IMG/VR virus record: IMGVR_UViG_3300037484_000776 | Span: 1-64,000 of that record | Reading direction: 5' to 3' (one strand) | DNA length: 64,000 nucleotides | Source: a virus | Taxonomy: Duplodnaviria > Caudoviricetes | Part shown: positions 6,171 to 16,645 of the stretch, in pieces | Numbering within the stretch: position 1 is the stretch's first letter | How the letters are laid out: every line of letters starts with the position of its first letter | The notes under the pieces: generated by a model | Seen by the model: only the letters and a program-made list of their open reading frames with translations | Databases searched by the model: none | What the model was told of the DNA's origin: nothing | Translations under genes and position numbers: made by a program

Positions 6171-9095
6171 ATGATAGACCTTCTAATACCTTCGGTAGTT
6201 GACGCCTCCTCTAATTTTGCTAGGGCAGTGGTTTCTGTTGTCCTGGTAGATGGGGATGGAGAGGAACGAGTCGGTTGGCAGGTGTCAACTGGTGTCGGTA
6301 TTGTGCAGCATAAGGAGATAGTGTTGCCGGAAGAAGGGATTACCTTGTCGTTGGTGCCACAAGATGATATAGCTATAGATGCTTTGGGTGGGGCGACTTA
6401 TTATAAGATTATAATTAGTTCCTCTAATAAGTCAGAAAGCTATATGGTTGCTCTTCCTAGTGATGAAGAGTCGTATACTTTATTTGAGTTGGTTGGTTTA
6501 AGTGGAGTTGTTCCAGGCTCTTTACTTTATGGAAGGCTTTTGACTTCGGCCGAGAGGGCTGGCATGGATGCAGTTAGTGAGCCAATAACAGCTCTAAATC
6601 CCTTTGCCACTATGGCAGACGTTGTGGAAGGAACGGCAGGGGTTGTTACGTTTGAAGGTAGGAGCGGAGCTGTTGTTGCCACGGCCGGAGATTACACGGC
6701 AGCCGAGGTCGGGGCTGAGCCTGCTGGCACTGTTGCTACGCACGCAGGGAATGCTTCGGCGCACCATGCGTTGGTAACGGTATCTGGAACTCCCGACTAT
6801 ATTACCCTTAGTGGGCAAGACCTGGTTCGCGGGTCGGTAGATTTAGCAGCTGATGTGACTGGGGATCTGCCTTTGGCGAATTTGGCCCAGGCGGCAGCGG
6901 CATCTACTTTGTTGGGTCGCGGTAGTGCTTCGGGTGCGGGAGATTGGCAGGCTTTGGCGCTTGGCACTAATCTCAGCATGTCAGGGACTACGTTGAATGC
7001 TGCTGATGGAGTGGGGGTAACGAACCTAAGTATTGCGAACGCTGGAGTATCCACGCTTGATATAGCGTCGGATACTGGTACTGACGCCACTATTCCATCT
7101 GCTACAGCATCTGCTGCTGGATTGGCTACTGCTGCTCAGATAACGAAGCTGGACGGTATTGCAGCAGGGGCGACTGTTGAAGGGGCCGCTGGCGATGCTT
7201 TTGCTTCTTCTCATCCTGGGGGAAATTCCCATATTGACTGGGCTTCGGATCAAGGGGCTACTGATATTCATTCTGGTAATATTCCTGATTTATCAGGTAC
7301 TTATGCAGTAGTCGCAAATGGGGTTACTGGAGGGGATAATCACGACCATAGTGGTGGGGATGGGGCACAGATTTCGTACACGGCTCTTGGCAGCGTACCT
7401 TCACCATCCTTTGGTGTTATAGCTGTTGCGGGACAAGACAATGTAGTTGCCGATACCGATCCTGATACCTTAACTTTGGTTGCTGGCACCAGTATAGAGT
7501 TACTGACTAACGCTACGTCTGATTCTATTACTATTAATACCCCTAGACTGGTATCTGGCTTTATTAATCGCACCGATACCACACTTGGCTTTGCCTCTAA
7601 TACTTTTACACTTGGTAAAGTAAATAATTACAGGGTTTGGTCTAATTCCGAGCCATTTGATTATACTGCCAGTGAAGCTATTGCCATTCCTGATGTAACC
7701 GGGTTTTACTTCTTATATATAGATGAGAACGGAGAGCTTATACTTGATGAGATTCCGTTTGATTTCTCTTCGGCTGATGGTTTTATTGCATCCTTATATT
7801 ATAATTCCACAAATCCAACTGAGTATGTCTTAGGGGAGGAGAGGCACAGTTATTTTAGGAACCCTCTTGCTCACGCTGTGGCTCACGGCTCGATTGGATC
7901 TTTCTGGAAGAATGGGCTTGTAGGAACTTTTGGTGATGTTAACGGCAGTATGTCTATTTCTGCCGGACAGTTTAATGATGAGGATTTAGCACACGTATTC
8001 TCAGGCGCAACTACCCAAGCCCGAATAGTTTATCTGGATGCCAGTGGATGGCGCTGTGAAGCTTTAAGTTCTGATATAAGGAAGACTTCTGGCGGTATTA
8101 TCCAATGGAATAACGGTACGGCTCTAGCTTCCCCGGCGGCAAGCGATTACGTGTGTTACTGGGTTTTCGCGGCTAATACAGGGCAAATTCATGTTGTAGT
8201 TGGGCAACAGACCCATACTACCAGTGCAGCGGCCTTAACAATTGTTCCAGACTCCCTTACTTTGCCCCCCTGGTTAAATATAGAGGGCCGCCTTCTCTAC
8301 AAGATAATTTATCAAAGGACGGCTGGCACCCCTACTGGAGACATCTTCCAGACTCCTATTGATTATCGTAGGGTAACTATCGTAGGTGGAACAACCCTTG
8401 CCAGTAGCTTCCTGTCATCGGTTTTGCCCAGCAGCCAGATCCTAGTCGGTAGTGCCAGCAATATAGCTTCTCCTGTTGCTATGAGTGGCGCAGCTACCAT
8501 AACTAATGCAGGAGTAGTAGACCTAGTAGCTGGTACTGTATCTCTTTCTGAGATGGCCAACCTTGCTCAAGACCAGTTTATTGGGCGCACTACAGCCAGC
8601 ACCGGGGTTCCCGAGACAACTACTATTACTGCTGCGGCCCGCACAGTTCTTGACGATACTACTGTTTCTGGTATGGTAGATACTCTTGGAGGTGCGTCTT
8701 CTACCGGGACTGGTGGGTTAGTACGGGCCGCTGCTCCAACTATTTCCCCTCTGCTATCTACGTACACTATACAAGGGTATACTGGTCTCACGGCATCTGG
8801 TGCGGTAATCACCATACCTTTGGATGGTAGGTCCTATACCTATACACTACCTGAGAACACGACCATCGCGCTAAGTGGTGAGCCTACTCCACCGATATGT
8901 GCGGAGATAGACATCGTGCTTAAGCAAGCTGCGAGCGGTGGACCATATACCATCGCCTATCCCGCGGCCTGGAACTGGCCTGGCGGTATCGCGTCTACTA
9001 TGCCCATTACGGCGAACGCCCGTATGCGTATCGTAGTTTCCTCAGATGCCGCTGGCGTGATTGATGCATCGGCCATGTGGATGAAGACAGTCTGA
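6171..9095 (+). CDS. Long tail fibre / receptor-binding protein
   Basis: About 974 aa, Ala/Gly/Thr/Ser rich with modular fibre-like segments. Start placed at ATG 6171 (AGGA RBS); the ORF track begins at 6153. Confidence 0.75.
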   Translation: MIDLLIPSVVDASSNFARAVVSVVLVDGDGEERVGWQVSTGVGIVQHKEIVLPEEGITLSLVPQDDIAIDALGGATYYKIIISSSNKSESYMVALPSDEESYTLFELVGLSGVVPGSLLYGRLLTSAERAGMDAVSEPITALNPFATMADVVEGTAGVVTFEGRSGAVVATAGDYTAAEVGAEPAGTVATHAGNASAHHALVTVSGTPDYITLSGQDLVRGSVDLAADVTGDLPLANLAQAAAASTLLGRGSASGAGDWQALALGTNLSMSGTTLNAADGVGVTNLSIANAGVSTLDIASDTGTDATIPSATASAAGLATAAQITKLDGIAAGATVEGAAGDAFASSHPGGNSHIDWASDQGATDIHSGNIPDLSGTYAVVANGVTGGDNHDHSGGDGAQISYTALGSVPSPSFGVIAVAGQDNVVADTDPDTLTLVAGTSIELLTNATSDSITINTPRLVSGFINRTDTTLGFASNTFTLGKVNNYRVWSNSEPFDYTASEAIAIPDVTGFYFLYIDENGELILDEIPFDFSSADGFIASLYYNSTNPTEYVLGEERHSYFRNPLAHAVAHGSIGSFWKNGLVGTFGDVNGSMSISAGQFNDEDLAHVFSGATTQARIVYLDASGWRCEALSSDIRKTSGGIIQWNNGTALASPAASDYVCYWVFAANTGQIHVVVGQQTHTTSAAALTIVPDSLTLPPWLNIEGRLLYKIIYQRTAGTPTGDIFQTPIDYRRVTIVGGTTLASSFLSSVLPSSQILVGSASNIASPVAMSGAATITNAGVVDLVAGTVSLSEMANLAQDQFIGRTTASTGVPETTTITAAARTVLDDTTVSGMVDTLGGASSTGTGGLVRAAAPTISPLLSTYTIQGYTGLTASGAVITIPLDGRSYTYTLPENTTIALSGEPTPPICAEIDIVLKQAASGGPYTIAYPAAWNWPGGIASTMPITANARMRIVVSSDAAGVIDASAMWMKTV

Positions 9096-9787
9096 TGTCA
9101 CGTATACAAAGAGTGCAGCAGCCACTGATACGAGGGAGTCTCGTTGGAAGGTGGCTGTGTGGTGCGAAAGATGTAAATGACTATAGCGAGACCGGGAACA
9201 ATGGAAGCCTAGTTGGTTCCCCGACTTGGACTGACGGAAGACGCGGGCCGATGCTGACGTTAAATGGCAGTGACCAGTCTGTCAGTATTCCAGACCATGC
9301 GTCTATGGAGATAGGGGCTAGTGATTTTACAATATGTGCGTGGATATACCTGACTGGGTATTCATCCAGCTACTCAGGGGCTTATGGGGCGGCCATTTTG
9401 GCAAAGGACTCCAATATCTCGGCTGACCGCTCTTTTGCCTTTTATTGTTTTGGCACAGCCAGTTCTTGGACTAGAACTGCCGTGCAGTTATTTGATACTT
9501 CTTCGAATACAAATAATAACTTTACTGTTTCTTTGGCCCTTAATACACTGTACCTTTGTGTGGCTAGGAGAATATCAGGAGTGGTATATCAAAGCGTAAA
9601 TGCAGGAACGCCAGGTTCTGAAGCAAACACAAGAACTGTGCGAAACACTGCAACAACAGTAAAGATAGGTCAGCTTGGACACACAACATATCAATATTGG
9701 TTTCCTGGAAAACTGTATGACGTTCGCCTCTATCTTCGTGGATTATCTGATGACGAAGTAGCGGCCATTTATAGAGGACAAGGATAA
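9095..9787 (+). CDS. LamG / concanavalin-A-like jellyroll protein
   Basis: DYSETGNNGSLVG, FTICAWIY and FPGKLYDVRLYLRGLSDDEVAAIY match the LamG-like pattern; TGATG coupling to the upstream gene. Confidence 0.85.
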   Translation: MSRIQRVQQPLIRGSLVGRWLCGAKDVNDYSETGNNGSLVGSPTWTDGRRGPMLTLNGSDQSVSIPDHASMEIGASDFTICAWIYLTGYSSSYSGAYGAAILAKDSNISADRSFAFYCFGTASSWTRTAVQLFDTSSNTNNNFTVSLALNTLYLCVARRISGVVYQSVNAGTPGSEANTRTVRNTATTVKIGQLGHTTYQYWFPGKLYDVRLYLRGLSDDEVAAIYRGQG

Positions 9788-10446
9788 TGGATTATACGCA
9801 CAATCTTATCATAACCCCACTCCCAGCATGGGTGGAAATAAGTGGAGTACTCTATCAGCCTGAGGCTTTAACGGCTGATCAACTCTCTGAGCAGGGATGG
9901 CTCAGTCTTATATATGACCCAGAAGGGGAGCCACTTGGTTATGCGGCACCTGTCGCAGAGACTCGGGCTGGGGTTCTGGTTGCAGTCGCCTATGCTCTTG
10001 GAACCGTGGCCGAGAGGTTAGCGGCAAAGGCTAGAGCCCTTCAAAAAGAAAAGAACCAAGAGACAAAGGACCTTGTTCAGCGAGCACAAACAACCATAAA
10101 TGAACTTCTAGGTCTCTCAGATACATCTGATGATCTGCTCGGGAATGCCGTTCGTTCTATGGTACGGGCGATAGTTAATAAGCTCGCAACTGATGCTGGG
10201 TTGTCGGCGAATGTGACGAACGCGGAAGCTAAGGCAGCCGCTATAGCAGCGGACCCGATCTGGGATCGTCTTGACCAGACAGGCCGGGCACAAAAGGCGA
10301 TGAAACAGGAGATCGCTGCTCTGACAGATGCGGTGATAGCTGGGACTGCTACGTTGGAAGATCTTGTGAGGTATTCGGTTACAGTGGCGGCCCTTATTCG
10401 TCTTGTTCCAGAATTGGGGTTGTGGCTTAATGAAGCAGATATGTGA
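9787..10446 (+). CDS. Hypothetical protein, possible fibre assembly chaperone
   Basis: 219 aa, helical, translationally coupled to the fibre module. Confidence 0.6.
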   Translation: MDYTHNLIITPLPAWVEISGVLYQPEALTADQLSEQGWLSLIYDPEGEPLGYAAPVAETRAGVLVAVAYALGTVAERLAAKARALQKEKNQETKDLVQRAQTTINELLGLSDTSDDLLGNAVRSMVRAIVNKLATDAGLSANVTNAEAKAAAIAADPIWDRLDQTGRAQKAMKQEIAALTDAVIAGTATLEDLVRYSVTVAALIRLVPELGLWLNEADM

Positions 10447-11081
10447 AGAGCGGCAGTACCATGACTATTAGAGGAACGCTAAATAACTTATCCACGCTAC
10501 AGAAAACTATAGAGGAAGTGGTTACTGTTAGTAAAGAAAATGCTTTATATCTTAAACAAGTAGCTGAAGAAATAAAGTCTCTTCAAAAGATAAATATTAA
10601 AGCAGAATCTACGGAAATTGTAGCTGAAGCTAGGTTTATCAAGTTAGAGACGGTTGTACAAAATATAACAGAGATAGCTCATGGTCAGGCTGTAAATTTG
10701 AAGGAACTGGCGGAAGACATACAGGTATTAACAAAAGGTGTATCTGACCATGTTACATCTACAGCCAAGACTAACTGGAGTACTCTAGCTTCCTGGTCCG
10801 CAGTCGTTCTTACCTTTGTTTCACTTGCCGGTTTCGGCTTTGTACGAGACATTGGCAAGTTAGAAGACTCATATAAGACCGTGCTTTGGGAAGAAGTTAT
10901 CCCTTACTTGAGAGAGGGGCATGTCCCTGTATTGTCGGCTAAAGTAGAGGAGATAGATTCAAGATTGGCACGTATGGATACAAGGATCACTTATGAAGTG
11001 GATAAGCTAATGTCTTGGTATAAAGAGCAGAACGACTTTCTTGAAAGTCTGCATGAAAATGGGCAGCTTAAGAAACAGTAA
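10443..11081 (+). CDS. Coiled-coil membrane protein
   Basis: Heptad-rich N-part plus one hydrophobic segment (WSTLASWSAVVLTFVSLAGFGFV); start 10443 or 10461. Confidence 0.7.
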   Translation: MKSGSTMTIRGTLNNLSTLQKTIEEVVTVSKENALYLKQVAEEIKSLQKINIKAESTEIVAEARFIKLETVVQNITEIAHGQAVNLKELAEDIQVLTKGVSDHVTSTAKTNWSTLASWSAVVLTFVSLAGFGFVRDIGKLEDSYKTVLWEEVIPYLREGHVPVLSAKVEEIDSRLARMDTRITYEVDKLMSWYKEQNDFLESLHENGQLKKQ

Positions 11082-11105: not shown

Positions 11106-11399
11106 ATGAAACTATTGGTTTACATTCCCGCGGTAGTCTTATCGTCAGCTCTTTTATTTGGTTGCGGAACTACTACTGGAGAGCGAACTGCCTCTGGAGC
11201 CTTGCTTGGTGCAGGCACTGGGGCGGCCATTGGCTCCTTTAGCGGTAACGCTGGCAAAGGGGCTGTCATCGGAACAGGTATAGGGGCTCTTGGTGGGTAT
11301 CTTTACGACCAAGATGTTAACAGTCGGTACAGGAGCTCCTACCCGTATAATAGCGGCTATGGGTATGAGAACCCTTATAGACGTTCTTATGGTTATTGA
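11106..11399 (+). CDS. Glycine-zipper lipoprotein
   Basis: Lipobox LLFG-C20, then GALLGAGTGAAIG...GAVIGTGIGALGG glycine zipper; AGGAG RBS. Confidence 0.85.
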   Translation: MKLLVYIPAVVLSSALLFGCGTTTGERTASGALLGAGTGAAIGSFSGNAGKGAVIGTGIGALGGYLYDQDVNSRYRSSYPYNSGYGYENPYRRSYGY

Positions 11400-11409
11400 G
11401 GGGTTAAAA

Positions 11410-11670
11410 ATGAAGGTTCTTACTGTCTTAGGTGTTCTAATGGCTGTGGCTATTTCCGGCTCTACGGCAATTGCTAAGGATACGGATCGCTACCCAGGGG
11501 GACGTGCACAGATCTATAAGGAGACTTGTGGTGATCTAGTACGTCGCCGTGAGAGGGAGTTGAAGCGTTATTATGAGATACAGATGGAAGCGTTGAGGGG
11601 TGAGCTTCGTCGTCCTGAGAGTCGGTATCGGGATAGGTATGATGACAGGAGGCGTGGAAGTGAAAGGTGA
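11410..11670 (+). CDS. Small exported protein, Arg-rich C-terminus
   Basis: Start reassigned to ATG 11410 (GAGG RBS); Sec signal MKVLTVLGVLMAVAISGSTAIA. Confidence 0.7.
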   Translation: MKVLTVLGVLMAVAISGSTAIAKDTDRYPGGRAQIYKETCGDLVRRRERELKRYYEIQMEALRGELRRPESRYRDRYDDRRRGSER

Positions 11671-12079
11671 TGAACCCTTTAGAGGGTTAGCCCGCCGGGT
11701 CAATGGCTGGTATAATGACCTGAAGAACAGACAGGAGGTCTACCTGCTTTTGCAGGGTTATGTTACCATGGTAGCACTTAAAGGGTAACCATCAGCAGCC
11801 TCAAATCTATCTAAATCTACGCCAATCTGTACTTTTGGCAATAGATACTAATCCATTGCTATTCAATAGCGATTCGCTTACAATAGCGTTGGTAGAGAGC
11901 TTTCATTGGGCGATAACCAAGCTCAATGCTTGAAACCTAGTCTGGACGCGCTCAAGCCGGACTTTAAACGCGCATCGGAGTCTTGTTAGACCATCAGCTT
12001 GCTGGTGGCTTAGGCGTTGATGGTGCGAATAGATTTGCCTGAGTTTAGATTTGGGCAGATTTTTATGAGCGGTATGTAC

Positions 12080-12385
12080 ATGAACCAGAAAACAAGCCTT
12101 GAGATCCTAATGGGGGATGCTCTTGAAGCAGAACCCGCTTCCACCACTCCCGCTGAAAAACGGGTTTTTGAAGAACGGCTAGACGATGTTTTAGCTCCTA
12201 AGCCTTGGTATACCTCTAAGACCGTTCTTGGGGCGGCAGCTTCCATCATCTGTGTTGTTGCCTCTCTGTCTGGTATTGTTCTGGACTCTAATGTAGTCCT
12301 TGAGATTCTCTTATTGCTGGTCAGTGCCTCTGGTTCGGCCTTCTCCATTTACGGTCGATTTAAAGCCCTGCATCCCATTGAATAG
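12080..12385 (+). CDS. Holin-like membrane protein
   Basis: KPWYTSKTVLGA...two TM segments...SIYGRFKA, a pattern common in phage holin-like proteins; start uncertain. Confidence 0.65.
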   Translation: MNQKTSLEILMGDALEAEPASTTPAEKRVFEERLDDVLAPKPWYTSKTVLGAAASIICVVASLSGIVLDSNVVLEILLLLVSASGSAFSIYGRFKALHPIE

Positions 12386-12396
12386 TAACAATTAAA

Positions 12397-12443
12397 GTAG
12401 TTTAAACTACCTCTCGACATATTTGTAGGGACTCCGTTAGTTT
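12397..12443 (+). promoter_or_regulatory. Perfect 14-bp palindrome abutting a putative sigma70 promoter
   Basis: GTAGTTTAAACTAC (12397-12410); TCGACA (12414-12419) - 18 bp - TAGTTT (12438-12443). Confidence 0.4.
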
Positions 12444-12530
12444 GAATTGTGCACTCATCCTGTGTGCAATCTGTTGAACGGCCAGATACTGCCGTTTGTC
12501 ATCCCTATGTTTAATTTGAGGGTTATGTTA

Positions 12531-12911
12531 ATGCGTACTCTTATCGTTGCCGCTGCTATCGCGGCCCTTCCTTTGGCTGCCTCTGCCGATTACCTCGACA
12601 TCTTTGCTGGTAATGCCCAGTCTGCGGCTGCTTCTGAGAGCGTTTCTGGTGGATTTGCTACTGGTGATGCTGCCGTTCTTAACGGTAACAACAGCTATGC
12701 TACTGGAGGTTCTCAGTCGGGTGTGGCTATTGACTCTCTGGGCAGTGTCAATGCGACGACCAACAACTATGCATCGTCTGGTTCCAACGGTTACACTGCA
12801 ACCCAAGAAGGCTTTGGGTTTGGTAATACCGCGGTTGGTTTCAACTTCGGCCAGGCGGCCGGCGCTGGCCAGTCTCAGGTCGGGTATATCGGCGGTGCTT
12901 GGTCCTTCTAA
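12531..12911 (+). CDS. Secreted low-complexity (G/S/A/N) protein; candidate fibre or amyloid major subunit
   Basis: Signal peptide MRTLIVAAAIAALPLAASA; 107-aa mature chain with no K, R, H, C, P or M; GAGGG RBS. Confidence 0.8.
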   Translation: MRTLIVAAAIAALPLAASADYLDIFAGNAQSAAASESVSGGFATGDAAVLNGNNSYATGGSQSGVAIDSLGSVNATTNNYASSGSNGYTATQEGFGFGNTAVGFNFGQAAGAGQSQVGYIGGAWSF

Positions 12912-12944
12912 AGAACAGGTCTGAGTTGTACTTAGGCTGAGTTC

Positions 12945-12974
12945 CAAAACCCTGTCAGAAATGACAGGGTTTTG
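12945..12974 (+). terminator. Intergenic hairpin (partial terminator or mRNA stabiliser)
   Basis: CAAAACCCTGTCA-GAAA-TGACAGGGTTTTG perfect 13-bp stem. Confidence 0.75.
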
Positions 12975-13001
12975 ACTAACTTAAATTATTTGGGGGTTTT
13001 A

Positions 13002-13664
13002 ATGAACAGGCGTCTTCTTGTAGTCATGGTTTCTTTGCTTGTGTCAGGTAGTGCTTTTGCTGGCATTTCTTCAGAGAATGACAGTATTGCGCTCTCCAGT
13101 TCTGTGTCTAAGTCAGTAGCGGCCGGGGGTAACCAGAGACAAGGGCAAGGTCAGGGTCAGGGTCAGGACCAAGGTCAAACGCAAGGGATTAACTACGCTC
13201 CTTCATCTTATGTAGAAGGTGTTGATCTAAGCAAGACTGTCCCAGCCTTTGTGCTTCCAGGTCTAACTGCTGGGTCCAACCCGTGTGCCCTTAGTGTTAC
13301 TGCTGGTGGTAGTGGAGCTGGTTTCGGGTTTGGAGTTGGCTGGGTGTATCAGGACCAAGATTGCGGCGTTCGTGAGAACATGCGTATAGTTGGTGGCATG
13401 TTGCGAGCCAACAATAATCCGAACGGGCAACTGGTCATGAAGAATATCATGTGTCAGTCATCCAGCATGTGGAAGGCTATGGAGTTGTCCTCTATAGAGG
13501 GCGGCGCTAAGAACCTCCGTTGTATCAACGAGCAACCTGGTATTGGTAGTTACGTTAAGTTGCGTAACAACGGGGAAGTTCCAGCAGTAACTTCTAAACT
13601 GCGCGGCGCTTCTTCCAAGAGTAGCGATCCTTCTTCCCCCTCAGCTGGGGCTTTTGGGTATTAA
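13002..13664 (+). CDS. Secreted protein with QG repeats and a 4-Cys domain
   Basis: Signal MNRRLLVVMVSLLVSGSAFA; QGQGQGQGQDQGQTQG; P-x-L-T-A-G-S-N-P-C...D-C...C-Q pattern that I recall from uncharacterised phage and bacterial proteins. Confidence 0.8.
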   Translation: MNRRLLVVMVSLLVSGSAFAGISSENDSIALSSSVSKSVAAGGNQRQGQGQGQGQDQGQTQGINYAPSSYVEGVDLSKTVPAFVLPGLTAGSNPCALSVTAGGSGAGFGFGVGWVYQDQDCGVRENMRIVGGMLRANNNPNGQLVMKNIMCQSSSMWKAMELSSIEGGAKNLRCINEQPGIGSYVKLRNNGEVPAVTSKLRGASSKSSDPSSPSAGAFGY

Positions 13665-13667
13665 GCC

Positions 13668-14090
13668 ATGAAGAAATCAGTACTGGTCGTCGGGCTGCTT
13701 AGCGTTATGACTTTGGCTTTGGCCGGTCAAGATGAGGTGTATTTTGCTCACGACAAGTCCACCACTTCAGACAGCGTTCCAGACCTTCGTGGTTTGGATG
13801 ATCCAGTTGTATTTGTAGGTAATACCAGTACTCCGGGGTCTGATGCTTACAACGACCGTCTCGGTACTCGCAGAGCTGTTTGGACTGCAAGGAAGAGTGG
13901 AGCCCTTTATCCGTCGGTTGTATCTCTTGGTGAAACCTATGCTACCGGGAATCAGGCGTTTGATCGTCGAGTGGATATTGTTTCTCCCTACGGATGGTGC
14001 AATACTATCAACGCTCACTTTCCCTGTACTAGTGCTTATGGACTGAGCTACATGTTTAATATTCCACAGGAAGCTCGTGTAGGAAACTAA
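13668..14090 (+). CDS. Secreted OmpA-like C-terminal (peptidoglycan-binding) domain protein
   Basis: Signal peptide, then VYFAHDKS, VGNTSTPGSDAYNDRLGTRRA, SLGET and DRRVDIV, matching the OmpA_C consensus. Confidence 0.8.
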   Translation: MKKSVLVVGLLSVMTLALAGQDEVYFAHDKSTTSDSVPDLRGLDDPVVFVGNTSTPGSDAYNDRLGTRRAVWTARKSGALYPSVVSLGETYATGNQAFDRRVDIVSPYGWCNTINAHFPCTSAYGLSYMFNIPQEARVGN

Positions 14091-14305
14091 GCTCTGTGAA
14101 ACGTGTCCACTAAAAGGACAGACTGCCAGGAACAGACTGGCATTCAGGTTCATGGCTAGGGTCGGCATAGCTGTGAGGCGGTTCGTTCTCTATAGCCGGC
14201 GTCTTCTCTTATCATGGTACCACCATGAAAAACTGTAGAAAGATTGCCGTTAATATAACGGTAGATGACTCTCTCTCCCGCAAAACCCATCGTGAGGTGC
14301 TCAAA

Positions 14306-14524
14306 ATGGCGACTAAAGTGTCTGAACTGGCGGCTGCTCTGGCATCAGTCCACAGCCTACTTGGTGAGGGTATTAATGAGGTCCTGGCCAAGATCCAGGA
14401 GTTGGAGGATGCCTTGGTTAACGCCAGCATCCCTGACGAGGCGCAGACTGCGTTGGATGCAGTGAAGGAAAGTGCTCAGGCACTGGCCGATATTGTTCCT
14501 AATGTGCCTCCAGTGGAATCCTAA
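14306..14524 (+). CDS. Small acidic coiled-coil protein
   Basis: Start reassigned to ATG 14306 (GAGGTG RBS); MATKVSELAAAL...AQALADIVP. Confidence 0.7.
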   Translation: MATKVSELAAALASVHSLLGEGINEVLAKIQELEDALVNASIPDEAQTALDAVKESAQALADIVPNVPPVES

Positions 14525-14592
14525 AGACTCCTAGAGTGTAAACAGGCCCAGAGCATATCTCACTGTATATGTTCTGGGCTCTAACTAAATAG

Positions 14593-14808
14593 GTGAATAA
14601 TGTGGAAAACGATGTAAATCTTAATATCGGCGATAATAACCTAACGGTTGTTATTATTCAAACCCAAAAAGCCCGGATGCTTTCTCGCCTTACTCTTGAA
14701 TATTTTGATTTCAAGAATGAGTTGGCAAACGAAGTAAACCTGTCGTTTGTTGAGGCTCTCACGGATGGAGTCCGTAAGTTCGCTTCGTCTAAGGCACAGC
14801 TTTCTTAG
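14593..14808 (+). CDS. Hypothetical protein
   Basis: 71-aa GTG-start ORF in operon orientation. Confidence 0.45.
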   Translation: MNNVENDVNLNIGDNNLTVVIIQTQKARMLSRLTLEYFDFKNELANEVNLSFVEALTDGVRKFASSKAQLS

Positions 14809-14894
14809 ACCTTAAGGTAAGGCATCCCTTGTCCTGCTGCTGTGTTAATAGCACAGCAGCAGCCATACACGTATACCATATTTTTAATATTCTC

Positions 14895-15284
14895 ATGAAC
14901 CTGAGAAAAGTTGTTTTTGTTTCTTGCACGCTACTTTTTGCAAGTTTTGTCGTTCAGGCAGAGGAGTTGAAGAGGTTGGGTGACTGTACCTTAACTACTG
15001 TGACCATAATCACTCAACGTTTGTCAGACAGTCAGACTGGAGAGGTGATACCAGAAAGTGGGTCAACCATTTTTCTCTCTAACGGAGTCATATTAACCGG
15101 GTATAACACGGTTCCTGGGATAGAGCATTCTCGTTTAGGAGACCCCGTTTATCTCTGTTTAGTAGGAATCCCAGAAGACTGCCCTCCAGGGGATGATCGA
15201 GGTAAGGTGTATCAGGCTACCAACCTTAGTACTAACGAGACTTGGACATTGCCTGACAGTCCACACAGTTGTGGAGGGGCTTAA
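14895..15284 (+). CDS. Secreted 4-Cys protein of a bacterial-type family
   Basis: Signal MNLRKVVFVSCTLLFASFVVQA; GDPVYLCLVGIPEDCPPGDDRGKVY...WTLPDSPHSCGGA motif, which I recall from bacterial hypothetical proteins. Confidence 0.75.
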   Translation: MNLRKVVFVSCTLLFASFVVQAEELKRLGDCTLTTVTIITQRLSDSQTGEVIPESGSTIFLSNGVILTGYNTVPGIEHSRLGDPVYLCLVGIPEDCPPGDDRGKVYQATNLSTNETWTLPDSPHSCGGA

Positions 15285-15285
15285 G

Positions 15286-15372
15286 ATGGACAGAGCCATG
15301 CGGCTTTACTTGTTATTTTTAGCTGGTATTTTAGCTTCCTCGATAATCGCTACGCTGATATTGGGAACTTGA
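15286..15372 (+). CDS. 28-aa single-TM peptide (not in ORF track)
   Basis: Hand-translated MDRAMRLYLLFLAGILASSIIATLILGT; fills the gap between neighbours. Confidence 0.45.
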   Translation: MDRAMRLYLLFLAGILASSIIATLILGT

Positions 15373-15387
15373 TATTGGAGTTATCTT

Positions 15388-15735
15388 ATGAGGAGATCGG
15401 CATCCTTCTTGGTTGTATCGGCTTTCTCTGTTGCAGCCAATTCTTCACCATTCGTGGTATCAGATTCAACTTCTTTTACTCCAGCCCCAACCAAGTGTGG
15501 TTGGACTTTGGACGCGACGGCAAAGGTCCCTATCCCTGTGGCGTTGGATTCCACGGGTAAGCCATACTGTAAGTACGATCTGGCAGCAGTTTCTAACGGG
15601 GCACACACAATCTCTGCAACCTTCCAAGTTGACGACCCTATACATGGGTTGCTGGAGAGTGCACCGTCCTCGGTGCTAAACTTTCAAATTCCGCAAGATC
15701 CTCCAGTACCGATAGGTTTAAGAGTTATTAAGTGA
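15388..15735 (+). CDS. Secreted small beta-sandwich (Ig/Fn3-like) protein
   Basis: GGAG RBS, signal-like N-terminus, 2 Cys, CKYDLAAVSNGAHTISA...PPVPIGLRVIK. Confidence 0.7.
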   Translation: MRRSASFLVVSAFSVAANSSPFVVSDSTSFTPAPTKCGWTLDATAKVPIPVALDSTGKPYCKYDLAAVSNGAHTISATFQVDDPIHGLLESAPSSVLNFQIPQDPPVPIGLRVIK

Positions 15736-16075: not shown

Positions 16076-16645
16076 ATGTCTGATACTTCTTTAATAGAGG
16101 GGGTAGAGTTTGAAGTAGTTACCGATACCGCCCCTCATTTTGATATCAGTGTAGAGATCCATAGAATTCGTCAACGGATCGGTTACCTAGAGAGGCTTAG
16201 GTCAAATGATCAACGGAAATTTGATGAAGTGTCTGCATGGCAAGATAAATATGCCAGGTCACATCGGGACATGGTGGCTACTTTAGAGCAGTTGATAGAC
16301 CAAAGCCTGAACTTTCCGAAAGCCATAAGCACACTTAAAAACGCCATTACCGCCCTCACTAAGACGGTAGAATCCCAGGTAGAGGAGTCAGCAAAATGGC
16401 ATGTTGAGTTGTCCAGACTTTATGTTGAAATGGTAAGTGCTATTTCAAACACAAAAGATGACGTTTCTGAGACGACCAAGATAGTTAAGGAGCACGAGAA
16501 GAGGGAATCAGTTATCACCAAGACTGTTGTAGTCCTTTACTCTTTGCTTTCTGGGGCTGTTACTCTGGCACTTATAGGGCTTTGGGATGCTACGTTGTGG
16601 CCCAGAGTAAAGGGAGCAGCAATTGTGTTACTGACTGGGGTGTAA
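16076..16645 (+). CDS. Coiled-coil protein with C-terminal TM segment
   Basis: 189 aa; heptads followed by VVVLYSLLSGAVTLALIGLW. Confidence 0.7.
   Translation: MSDTSLIEGVEFEVVTDTAPHFDISVEIHRIRQRIGYLERLRSNDQRKFDEVSAWQDKYARSHRDMVATLEQLIDQSLNFPKAISTLKNAITALTKTVESQVEESAKWHVELSRLYVEMVSAISNTKDDVSETTKIVKEHEKRESVITKTVVVLYSLLSGAVTLALIGLWDATLWPRVKGAAIVLLTGV

What the first reader, a model, noticed from the sequence alone, without database searches (positions are those of the whole stretch)
12397..14152. Self-contained three-gene cassette resembling a secreted fibre/amyloid system with a peptidoglycan anchor
Seen: (A) 12531-12911 has a signal peptide and a 107-aa mature chain with no K, R, H, C, P or M. 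It is built of about four imperfect G/S/A/N/Q-rich segments (GNAQSAAASESVSGG, GNNSYATGGSQSG, TNNYASSGSNG, FNFGQAAGAGQSQ) and has the same T/C-ending codon bias as MCP. (B) 13002-13664 has a signal peptide, an N-terminal SIALSSSVSKSVAAGGN segment resembling A's first repeat, a QG tract and a 4-Cys globular domain. (C) 13668-14090 has a signal peptide and an OmpA-like PG-binding domain. The cassette has its own putative promoter, a perfect 14-bp palindrome and two leader hairpins, a perfect 13-bp GAAA hairpin between A and B, and further hairpins after C. Known: curli (csgBA) and Fap operons pair an abundant G/S/N/Q-rich subunit with a related nucleator and envelope accessory proteins. Inference: the A-B hairpin sets A >> B, C stoichiometry, and the phage makes the infected cell build an extracellular or periplasmic polymer (aggregation, receptor shielding or a virion-trapping matrix). 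I know of no described phage system with this composition.
Basis: partly seen in the sequence, partly recalled or inferred. Interest (0 to 1): 0.85.

Follow-up and report, generated by a model that had tools for sequence, protein, structure and literature searches.

The report
Conserved phage exported envelope-protein trio
Three neighbouring phage genes encode exported proteins: an abundant, uncharged glycine/serine-rich chain, a four-cysteine protein of an unstudied family, and a cell-wall-binding OmpA-type protein. The set recurs in unrelated phages and, partly fused, in bacteria, so it is a real but uncharacterised cell-envelope module, and I found no evidence that it is a curli-like amyloid system.

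Summary
The three genes, their Sec signal peptides, A's extreme composition and the perfect 13-bp GAAA hairpin between A and B are all present.

The cassette is a conserved module. In five further IMG/VR phage contigs, a B homologue follows a signal-peptide, 71-76% G/S/A/T/N/Q protein wherever the upstream DNA is present. In three of the four loci with such a gene a stable hairpin lies between the two genes. B is followed closely by an OmpA-family gene in three loci and by an OmpA remnant in one.

In Novosphingobium humi an A-like gene precedes a single B-OmpA fusion protein.

- **B** belongs to PHROG 20531, with over 1,300 clusters, including Achromobacter phage JWAlpha gp25. Its core models confidently and matches no solved fold.
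- **C** is a divergent OmpA-like protein that has lost one of the two diaminopimelate-binding residues.
- **A** is an orphan. Its codon usage matches the major capsid protein, its "repeats" are not significant, and its single-sequence model is disordered.

The phage has no curlin repeat and no CsgG channel.

Best reading: a periplasmic, wall-associated B-C complex with A made in excess. What it does there (exclusion, envelope remodelling or lysis) is unknown.

This scan has noted the same family before on other DNA. I found no paper on it.

The parts
12386..12530 (+). Leader of the cassette. It holds a perfect 14-bp palindrome (12397-12410), two stem-loops, and a GAGGG ribosome-binding site 8 nt before the ATG of A.
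   Evidence: Sequence. The palindrome is unique in the window. The fold gives z -2.89, with no shuffle of 200 as stable. No sigma-70-like promoter was reported here.
12531..12911 (+). Gene A: a 126-aa precursor with a 19-aa Sec signal peptide and a 107-aa uncharged low-complexity chain rich in G/S/A/N/T/Q. The chain ends in W-S-F. Its sequence is an orphan.
   Evidence: no homologue; composition, repeats not significant; no predicted structure; capsid-like codon usage.
12918..12974 (+). Two stem-loops after A: a 9-bp stem at 12918-12938 and a perfect 13-bp stem with a GAAA loop at 12945-12974, whose 3' arm ends in UUUU. Probably a leaky terminator or a 3' mRNA stabiliser that keeps A above B and C.
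   Evidence: (-35.1 kcal/mol, z -7.4). Equivalent hairpins lie in the same position in L007, L009 and, more weakly, L008.
13002..13664 (+). Gene B: 220 aa, with a signal peptide, a low-complexity S/A/G/Q region containing a QG tract (about residues 21-70), and a conserved four-Cys domain (about residues 75-180). It belongs to PHROG 20531.
   Evidence: 1,343 clusters at E<=1e-3; conserved Cys; core pLDDT 85-96; no solved fold matched; JWAlpha gp25, hhalign probability 98.8%.
13668..14090 (+). Gene C: 140 aa with a signal peptide and a short, divergent OmpA-C-like domain. It reads GNTS where the family has G-H/Y-T-D, and it keeps RRA. It starts 3 nt after B's stop codon.
   Evidence: E 3e-13 to the L008 OmpA protein; subfamily profile against Pal/OmpA structures. 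Below Pfam detection.

Best explanation
The cassette is one copy of a conserved but uncharacterised envelope module of proteobacterial phages and some Proteobacteria.

All three products are exported by Sec. The cassette has no gene that looks like an outer-membrane export component, and the phage has no CsgG, so they most likely stay in the periplasm.

B is a disulfide-bonded four-Cys domain carrying a flexible low-complexity arm. C is an OmpA-like domain. B and C act as one unit, equivalent to the natural B-OmpA fusion proteins of bacteria, and sit at the peptidoglycan.

A is a low-complexity chain of the same general composition as B's arm. Capsid-like codon usage and a hairpin after the gene make it far more abundant, so it is the bulk component that the B-C unit binds, organises or holds at the wall.

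Shown: the genes, the export signals (read by eye), conserved gene order, the gene fusion, the hairpin, the codon bias, and C's kinship to OmpA.

Inferred: periplasmic location, B-C contact, A-B contact, and any polymer.

The physiological effect is a guess. The most likely effects are a change of the infected cell's envelope that shuts out other phages or alters wall-to-outer-membrane coupling.
For: Gene order, A-like then B-like:
- Seen in the window, L007, L008, L009 and L010, which is every phage locus with upstream DNA present.
- Also seen in Novosphingobium humi.
- In the bacterial metagenome contig L003 the two genes are adjacent in the reverse order.
- GC3 supports the reading frames in both bacterial loci.

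B then OmpA:
- An OmpA-family gene follows B after 3-19 nt in the window, L006, L007 and L008. The three relatives score 36-43 bits against Pfam's cut-off of 27.2.
- L009 has a remnant of the same gene (C_L008 against C_L009, E 2.7e-8).

Fusion:
- P0134 and the N. humi protein carry the four-Cys domain and a canonical OmpA domain in one chain (E 6.8e-41).

A in excess:
- Hairpins between the two genes.
- CAI 0.623 for A against 0.45-0.49 for B and C.

Other points:
- C is OmpA-like.
- B's four conserved Cys fit an oxidising compartment.
- No CsgG channel was found in the complete phage.
Against: - No interaction, location or expression was measured.
- The A-like proteins are alike in position and composition only. 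The best pairwise E-value is 0.006, and hhalign gives a probability of 1.9%.
- C has Ser where the family has the Asp that binds diaminopimelate, and it fails the Pfam model.
- L010 has no OmpA gene and L009 only a stump, so wall anchoring may be dispensable.
- JWAlpha gp25 has no A-like or OmpA gene directly beside it.
- A ends in W-S-F, a typical outer-membrane-protein C-terminus, so it could leave the periplasm.
- Cognate A and B-arm compositions do not co-vary significantly.
Confidence: 0.5

Rival explanations
1. One reading: a curli/Fap-like functional amyloid. A is the secreted fibre subunit, B nucleates it, and C anchors the fibre. The result is an extracellular matrix for aggregation, receptor shielding or virion trapping.
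For: - A is N/Q/G/S-rich, uncharged and abundant.
- A hairpin sets the ratio of major to minor product, as in fimbrial operons.
- B carries a low-complexity arm of similar composition.
- Many family members have Gly-rich repeat arms.
- A single-sequence model cannot rule out cross-beta assembly.
Against: - No curlin repeat and no CsgG in the complete phage or in four related records.
- The cassette has no gene that looks like an outer-membrane exporter.
- A's repeats are not above chance.
- B is not homologous to A.
- The AF2 model of A shows no beta structure.
- OmpA-like domains are periplasmic, so the proposed anchor would be on the wrong side of the outer membrane for an external fibre.
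Confidence: 0.12
2. A lysis-associated module. The proteins act late, next to the holin, either weakening or timing the break of the wall-to-outer-membrane connection (a spanin-like or lysis-delay role), for example by competing with host OmpA, Pal or Lpp for peptidoglycan.
For: - The ORF directly upstream (12017-12385) has two apparent TM helices (by eye) and hits a PHROG holin family (E 2.8e-5).
- The cassette lies between the tail-fibre genes and the terminase, a common place for lysis genes.
- In L008 a protein with an N-terminal TM segment and coiled coil, resembling an i-spanin, lies just upstream.
- A's capsid-like codon usage suggests late, high expression.
Against: - No endolysin was found nearby.
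- In JWAlpha the B homologue lies among early or middle genes.
- Bacterial chromosomal copies are not next to lysis genes.
- Nothing in A, B or C resembles a spanin or a known lysis regulator.
Confidence: 0.15
3. A is a small outer-membrane or beta-barrel-type protein, or a mimic of an unassembled one whose C-terminal aromatic-x-Phe triggers the envelope stress response. On this reading it is only loosely linked to B and C.
For: - A ends in W-S-F and has alternating aromatic and small residues in its last 35 residues.
- The nearest ESM Atlas cluster is auto-named 'YfaZ family outer membrane protein' and is mostly viral (score 0.91, 168 of 256 features).
Against: - The Atlas recognition value is below its reliable range.
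- The Pfam models for YfaZ and DUF6322 find nothing in the phage or its relatives even at E<=10.
- 107 residues is short for an 8-stranded barrel.
- AF2 predicts no strands.
- The A-like proteins of other loci end differently, in ...TP or ...LP.
Confidence: 0.06
4. Three unrelated exported accessory ('moron') genes that merely lie side by side, with no joint function.
For: The window packs seven exported small proteins into 11106-15735, so adjacency alone means little. A and C have no close homologues.
Against: The same order recurs in divergent phages, B and OmpA are fused in bacteria, B and C are 3 nt apart, and the hairpin position is conserved.
Confidence: 0.05

Closest known systems
PHROG 20531 (function unknown), e.g. 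Achromobacter phage JWAlpha gp25 (JJJB_0025, KF787095)
   Same: B matches the PHROG profile (E 1.8e-6). JWAlpha gp25 matches the B-family profile (hhalign probability 98.8%, E 9.6e-17). Both have a signal peptide, a low-complexity arm and a four-Cys domain.
   Different: gp25 has a G/N/Q-rich arm of about 150 aa and no separate A-like or OmpA gene directly beside it. No member has a tested function.
OmpA C-terminal-like / Pal peptidoglycan-binding domains (Pfam PF00691; PDB 4g4v, 2mqe, 3td3)
   Same: The C subfamily profile hits these structures at E 1e-11 to 1e-7. C keeps the G-S-x-x-Y-N-x-x-L-x-x-R-R-A core. The Atlas model aligns to a Pal cluster with TM 0.61.
   Different: C itself is below Pfam detection, its first helix region is shorter, and it has Ser where the Asp lies. 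That Asp, with the conserved Arg, binds diaminopimelate in A. baumannii OmpA (Asp271/Arg286, as cited in PMC5974059). Placing the Ser at that position rests on my alignment and memory of the motif. C is neither a lipoprotein nor joined to a barrel.
Curli (CsgA/CsgB with CsgG/E/F) and Pseudomonas Fap amyloid systems
   Same: An abundant exported N/Q/G/S-rich subunit is encoded next to a less abundant partner and envelope proteins.
   Different: There is no curlin repeat, no CsgG, no significant repeat in A, and the partner is not a paralogue of the subunit. I did not test Fap models.
Fimbrial operons with a stem-loop after the major subunit gene (pap, fim)
   Same: A stable hairpin after the first, most strongly expressed gene, followed by genes for minor components. 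This comparison is from my own knowledge of these operons.
   Different: There is no chaperone, usher or pilin fold here, and the effect of the hairpin on RNA levels is untested.
Periplasmic superinfection-exclusion and DNA-entry blocks (T4 Imm/Sp; bacterial HXS system, PMC13128918)
   Same: These are exported proteins that act in the periplasm against incoming phage. The HXS effector is a periplasmic repeat protein (abstract seen).
   Different: There is no sequence or composition likeness (A has no His), and no exclusion phenotype has been tested.

Membership tests
Curli (Csg) system | Major subunit built of curlin repeats (Pfam PF07012) | tested here: not met
   hmmscan of A and B found no curlin match at E<=1. 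A six-frame search of the whole phage and four related records found no match at E<=1, while the E. coli control was positive.
Curli (Csg) system | Dedicated outer-membrane channel CsgG (PF03783) | tested here: not met
   No match in the complete 86,950-bp phage or in four relatives. Four control genomes scored over the cut-off.
Curli (Csg) system | Nucleator is a paralogue of the major subunit | tested here: not met
   B is a four-Cys domain protein of a separate family. The composition of its arm is not specifically matched to A.
Functional amyloid in general | Subunit forms cross-beta or beta-solenoid polymers | tested here: inconclusive
   The single-sequence AF2 model of mature A has pLDDT 46.8 and no secondary structure. 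Internal repeats are not above shuffles. Oligomer modelling and biochemistry were not possible.
OmpA C-terminal-like domain (PF00691) | Match to the family model above the curated cut-off | tested here: not met
   C gave no Pfam hit at E<=1 or at E<=10 in the own-genome search. NCBIfam OmpA-type models gave only E 0.02-0.15.
OmpA C-terminal-like domain (PF00691) | Homology and fold shown through intermediates | tested here: met
   C against the L008 protein gives E 3e-13, and that protein scores 38.9 bits against Pfam OmpA's 27.2 cut-off. The subfamily profile against Pal/OmpA structures gives E down to 1.1e-11. The Atlas structure match to a Pal cluster has TM 0.61.
OmpA C-terminal-like domain (PF00691) | Asp and Arg pair that binds diaminopimelate | tested here: inconclusive
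   The Arg of RRA is kept. The Asp position reads Ser in C (GNTS), against GYTD or GHAD in the L006, L007 and L008 homologues. The roles of the residues are as cited in PMC5974059. I mapped them by motif, not by a structure alignment.
PHROG 20531 / B family | Profile match, signal peptide, low-complexity arm and four conserved Cys | tested here: met
   phrog_20531 E 1.8e-6. Profile search found 1,343 clusters at E<=1e-3 and 162 at E<=1e-10. C121 is invariant and C95, C151 and C174 are at least 90% conserved.
Intrinsic terminator or attenuator after gene A | GC-rich stem followed by a U-tract; step-down of transcript | tested here: inconclusive
   The stem is very stable, but the four U's form part of the stem and the terminator scan did not call it. 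RNA levels cannot be tested here.

The most novel reading that the evidence does not exclude
A widespread, undescribed three-part periplasmic system of proteobacterial phages and some Proteobacteria. A low-complexity protein made at capsid-like levels is organised by a four-Cys adaptor and an OmpA-type wall anchor into a gel or polymer layer at the peptidoglycan. Phages use it to seal the infected cell against other phages or to re-engineer the coupling between envelope layers.
Probability: 0.25. Interest if true: 0.8.

Novelty: categorically new. Interest (0 to 1): 0.62.

Why it matters
If the module works as one unit, it is a large family (over 1,300 sequence clusters) with no tested member, no Pfam family and no matching solved fold for its core domain. 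Phages as different as N4-like, T4-like and this 87-kb phage carry it, and so do soil alphaproteobacteria. A protein exported at capsid-like levels during infection must have a strong effect on the periplasm. Finding that effect could reveal a new way in which phages defend or remodel the infected cell. The natural B-OmpA fusion and the conserved hairpin give direct, cheap experimental handles.

Tried and rejected
- **Close relatives.** A, B and C had none in IMG/VR by single-protein scans, in deposited phages or in plasmids. A and C were orphans in the 5.8-billion-protein search.
- **Pattern scans for B.** Scans of 185,579 species genomes found nothing. Further IMG/VR scans with other subfamily alignments found nothing new.
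- **Nearest terminase relative (L002).** It lacks the cassette.
- **Taxon-wide search.** The genome search could not be centred on a virus or plasmid record, so no taxon-wide census was possible.
- **Fold of B.** Foldseek against the PDB gave no match at E<=0.001. VIA-wide gave a best Z of 4.2, which is in the noise.
- **Atlas leads for A.** YfaZ and DUF6322 got no HMM support.
- **Homology of A to the A-like proteins.** Not supported.
- **A/B-arm co-variation.** Not significant.
- **Flanking proteins.** The two coiled-coil/TM proteins on either side of the exported-protein cluster are not paralogues.
- **Literature.** Searches for a phage OmpA-like or amyloid module found nothing relevant.
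Full report
**What is in the window**

The window is the first 64 kb of a complete 86,950-bp IMG/VR phage record. It encodes a terminase, portal, protease and HK97-type capsid gene just downstream of the finding.

- By eye each begins with a typical Sec signal peptide ending in an AxA-type site. None has a lipobox. No signal-peptide predictor was available.
- Mature A is 107 residues with no K, R, H, C, P or M, and about 73% G/S/A/T/N/Q.
- B has a QG tract followed by a four-Cys region.
- C starts 3 nt after B's stop codon.

**Non-coding features**

- The stem-loop between A and B is the strongest inverted repeat in 5.8 kb. It is a perfect 13-bp stem with a GAAA loop at 12945-12974, with a 9-bp stem beside it. 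Together they give -35.1 kcal/mol (z -7.4).
- The leader is more structured than chance (z -2.9) and holds the 14-bp palindrome, which is unique in the window.
- No sigma-70-like promoter was reported in the leader.
- The hairpins after C are no better than shuffles (z -0.96).
- The terminator scan did not call the A-B hairpin, because its U's are part of the stem.

**Gene A**

- No homologue was found among 5.8 billion proteins, in Pfam, PHROGs or NCBIfam, or in the PDB.
- The claimed four repeats are not above chance: 20 of 100 shuffles score as well.
- A single-sequence AlphaFold model has pLDDT 46.8 and no secondary structure. This neither shows disorder nor excludes assembly.
- ESM Atlas neighbours ('YfaZ outer membrane protein', DUF6322; score 0.91, recognition below its reliable range) were not borne out by the Pfam models.
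- A's codon usage follows the major capsid gene. Its CAI with the MCP as reference is 0.623, second of 28 genes, and its third-position pyrimidine fraction is the highest. B and C are average.

**Gene B**

- B has three relatives in the word-indexed search. A profile built from them finds 1,343 clusters at E<=1e-3 and 162 at E<=1e-10.
- Members share a signal peptide, a variable low-complexity arm (S/G/A/N/Q/T-rich, sometimes GGX-like) and a domain with four conserved Cys.
- None of 48 members has a Pfam or NCBIfam name for this domain. B hits PHROG 20531, function unknown.
- With the 48-sequence alignment, AlphaFold models the core (residues about 75-180) at pLDDT 85-96 as a Gly-rich beta-hairpin plus three helices.
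- Foldseek against the PDB gives no match at E<=0.001. An exhaustive VIA-align search gives at best Z 4.2.

**Gene C**

- C fails Pfam OmpA.
- Its five best PDB hits are all OmpA-like domains matched on the same motif (E 0.35-1.1).
- Four NCBIfam OmpA/Pal models give E 0.02-0.15.
- The Atlas holds a model of C that aligns to a Pal cluster (TM 0.61 over residues 11-109).
- Decisively, C is homologous to the gene in the same position in L008 (E 3e-13), which passes Pfam's OmpA cut-off. A profile of this subfamily hits 41 PDB sequences, nearly all Pal or OmpA domains (best E 1.1e-11).
- C reads GNTS where its relatives read GYTD or GHAD. That Asp, with the conserved Arg, is reported to bind diaminopimelate (PMC5974059). 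C's wall binding may therefore be weakened. I mapped the residue by motif only.

**The module recurs**

A subfamily alignment (A4) retrieved five IMG/VR loci. My ORF reading of them gives the following.

| Locus | A-like gene | B-like gene | After B |
|---|---|---|---|
| L007 | 133-aa signal-peptide protein, 75% GSATNQ | present | OmpA |
| L008 | 361 aa | present | OmpA, 3 nt after B |
| L009 (144-kb phage) | 360 aa | present | 78-aa remnant matching only the tail of the L008 OmpA protein (E 2.7e-8) |
| L010 | 124 aa | present | no OmpA |
| L006 | cut off by the contig end | present | OmpA |

- The OmpA genes score 36-43 bits against Pfam's cut-off of 27.2.
- Hairpins lie between the A-like and B-like genes in L007 (z -5.2), L009 (17-bp stem, z -4.9) and, weakly, L008 (z -1.9). 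Their sequences are unrelated to one another.
- The A-like proteins share position, signal peptide, composition (71-76% GSATNQ, no Cys) and little else. The best pairwise E-value to A is 0.006, and hhalign gives 1.9%.

**Bacterial copies**

- P0134 joins the four-Cys domain to a canonical OmpA domain.
- In Novosphingobium humi (NZ_CP117418.1) an A-like secreted G/S/A/T-rich ORF directly precedes such a fusion. The fusion matches the B profile at E 6.8e-41.
- On an alphaproteobacterial chromosomal contig (L003, between glnE and rimM/rpsP) a B-like gene is followed by a secreted G/S/T-rich ORF.
- Third-position GC supports these reading frames.
- The fusion is a Rosetta-stone argument that B and C work together.

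**Cultured phage**

Following a lead from earlier notes of this scan, I confirmed that Achromobacter phage JWAlpha gp25 (an N4-like phage) is a family member (hhalign probability 98.8%). It has a long G/N/Q-rich arm and no A-like or OmpA gene directly beside it. I found no paper on its function.

**How it most likely works**

- *Shown:* export signals (read by eye), conserved order, the fusion, the conserved hairpin position, A's codon bias, and C's kinship to OmpA.
- *Inferred:* the products stay in the periplasm, because the complete phage has no CsgG and the cassette has no gene that looks like an outer-membrane exporter. B and C form a wall-associated unit. A, made in excess, is what that unit binds or organises.
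- *Unknown:* the physiological outcome. The options I can see are exclusion of other phages, changed coupling of the envelope layers, or a role in lysis.
- The lysis idea rests on a holin-like ORF directly upstream (12017-12385, PHROG holin E 2.8e-5) and on the position between the tail-fibre genes and the terminase. The early-region position in JWAlpha and the bacterial copies argue against it.

- The 'self-contained cassette', the stoichiometry idea and the wall anchor are supported.
- The curli-like amyloid idea fails the three curli membership tests I ran and remains an open but minority possibility.

**Earlier notes in this scan**

The scan has noted the same family at least four times on other DNA. 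Those notes agree with what I had already found independently. They are AI notes and do not count as independent evidence.

**Limits**

- No genome-wide census could be centred on a virus record.
- Only two structure jobs were available.

Noticed in passing
window 12017-12385 (+): The ORF directly upstream of the cassette has two apparent TM helices near its C-terminus and hits a PHROG holin family (phrog_34682, E 2.8e-5). It is a possible holin, but no endolysin was found nearby.
   Followed up: partly
window 11106-11399 (+): A 97-aa lipoprotein (lipobox LFGC) with a glycine-zipper domain (Pfam Gly-zipper_YMGG, E 1.4e-10) and a Tyr/Arg-rich tail. It is the first of seven exported small proteins packed into 11106-15735.
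   Followed up: partly
window 11410-11670, 14892-15284, 15388-15735 (+): Three further small ORFs with signal-peptide-like N-termini and no family match. The first has an Arg-rich coiled-coil-like tail.
   Followed up: no
window 10443-11081 and 16076-16645 (+): Two coiled-coil proteins, each with a TM segment, bracket the exported-protein cluster. They are not detectably related to each other.
   Followed up: partly
window 9077-9787 (+): A Laminin_G_3 / concanavalin-like domain protein (E 2e-11) at the end of a run of large structural genes. It is probably a tail-fibre or receptor-binding part.
   Followed up: no
L014 4131-5783 (Novosphingobium humi NZ_CP117418.1, about 1076033-1077685): A cultured bacterium carries an A-like secreted low-complexity gene followed by a single protein that joins the four-Cys domain to a canonical OmpA domain. 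The record held here is almost unannotated.
   Followed up: partly
L009 8655-8891: In a 144-kb phage the gene after B is a 78-aa exported stump that keeps only the C-terminal tail (motif ...HLQY-x-TIP...) of the OmpA-type protein. A similar tail motif (...Y-M-F-N-I-P-Q...) ends C in the window.
   Followed up: partly
P0094, P0114, P0149 and L003 7902-8720: Alphaproteobacterial B-family members carry long C-terminal extensions with a repeated G-C-x-x-E-Y-Q-x-x-G-G-W-Y-x-x-C motif of unknown meaning.
   Followed up: no
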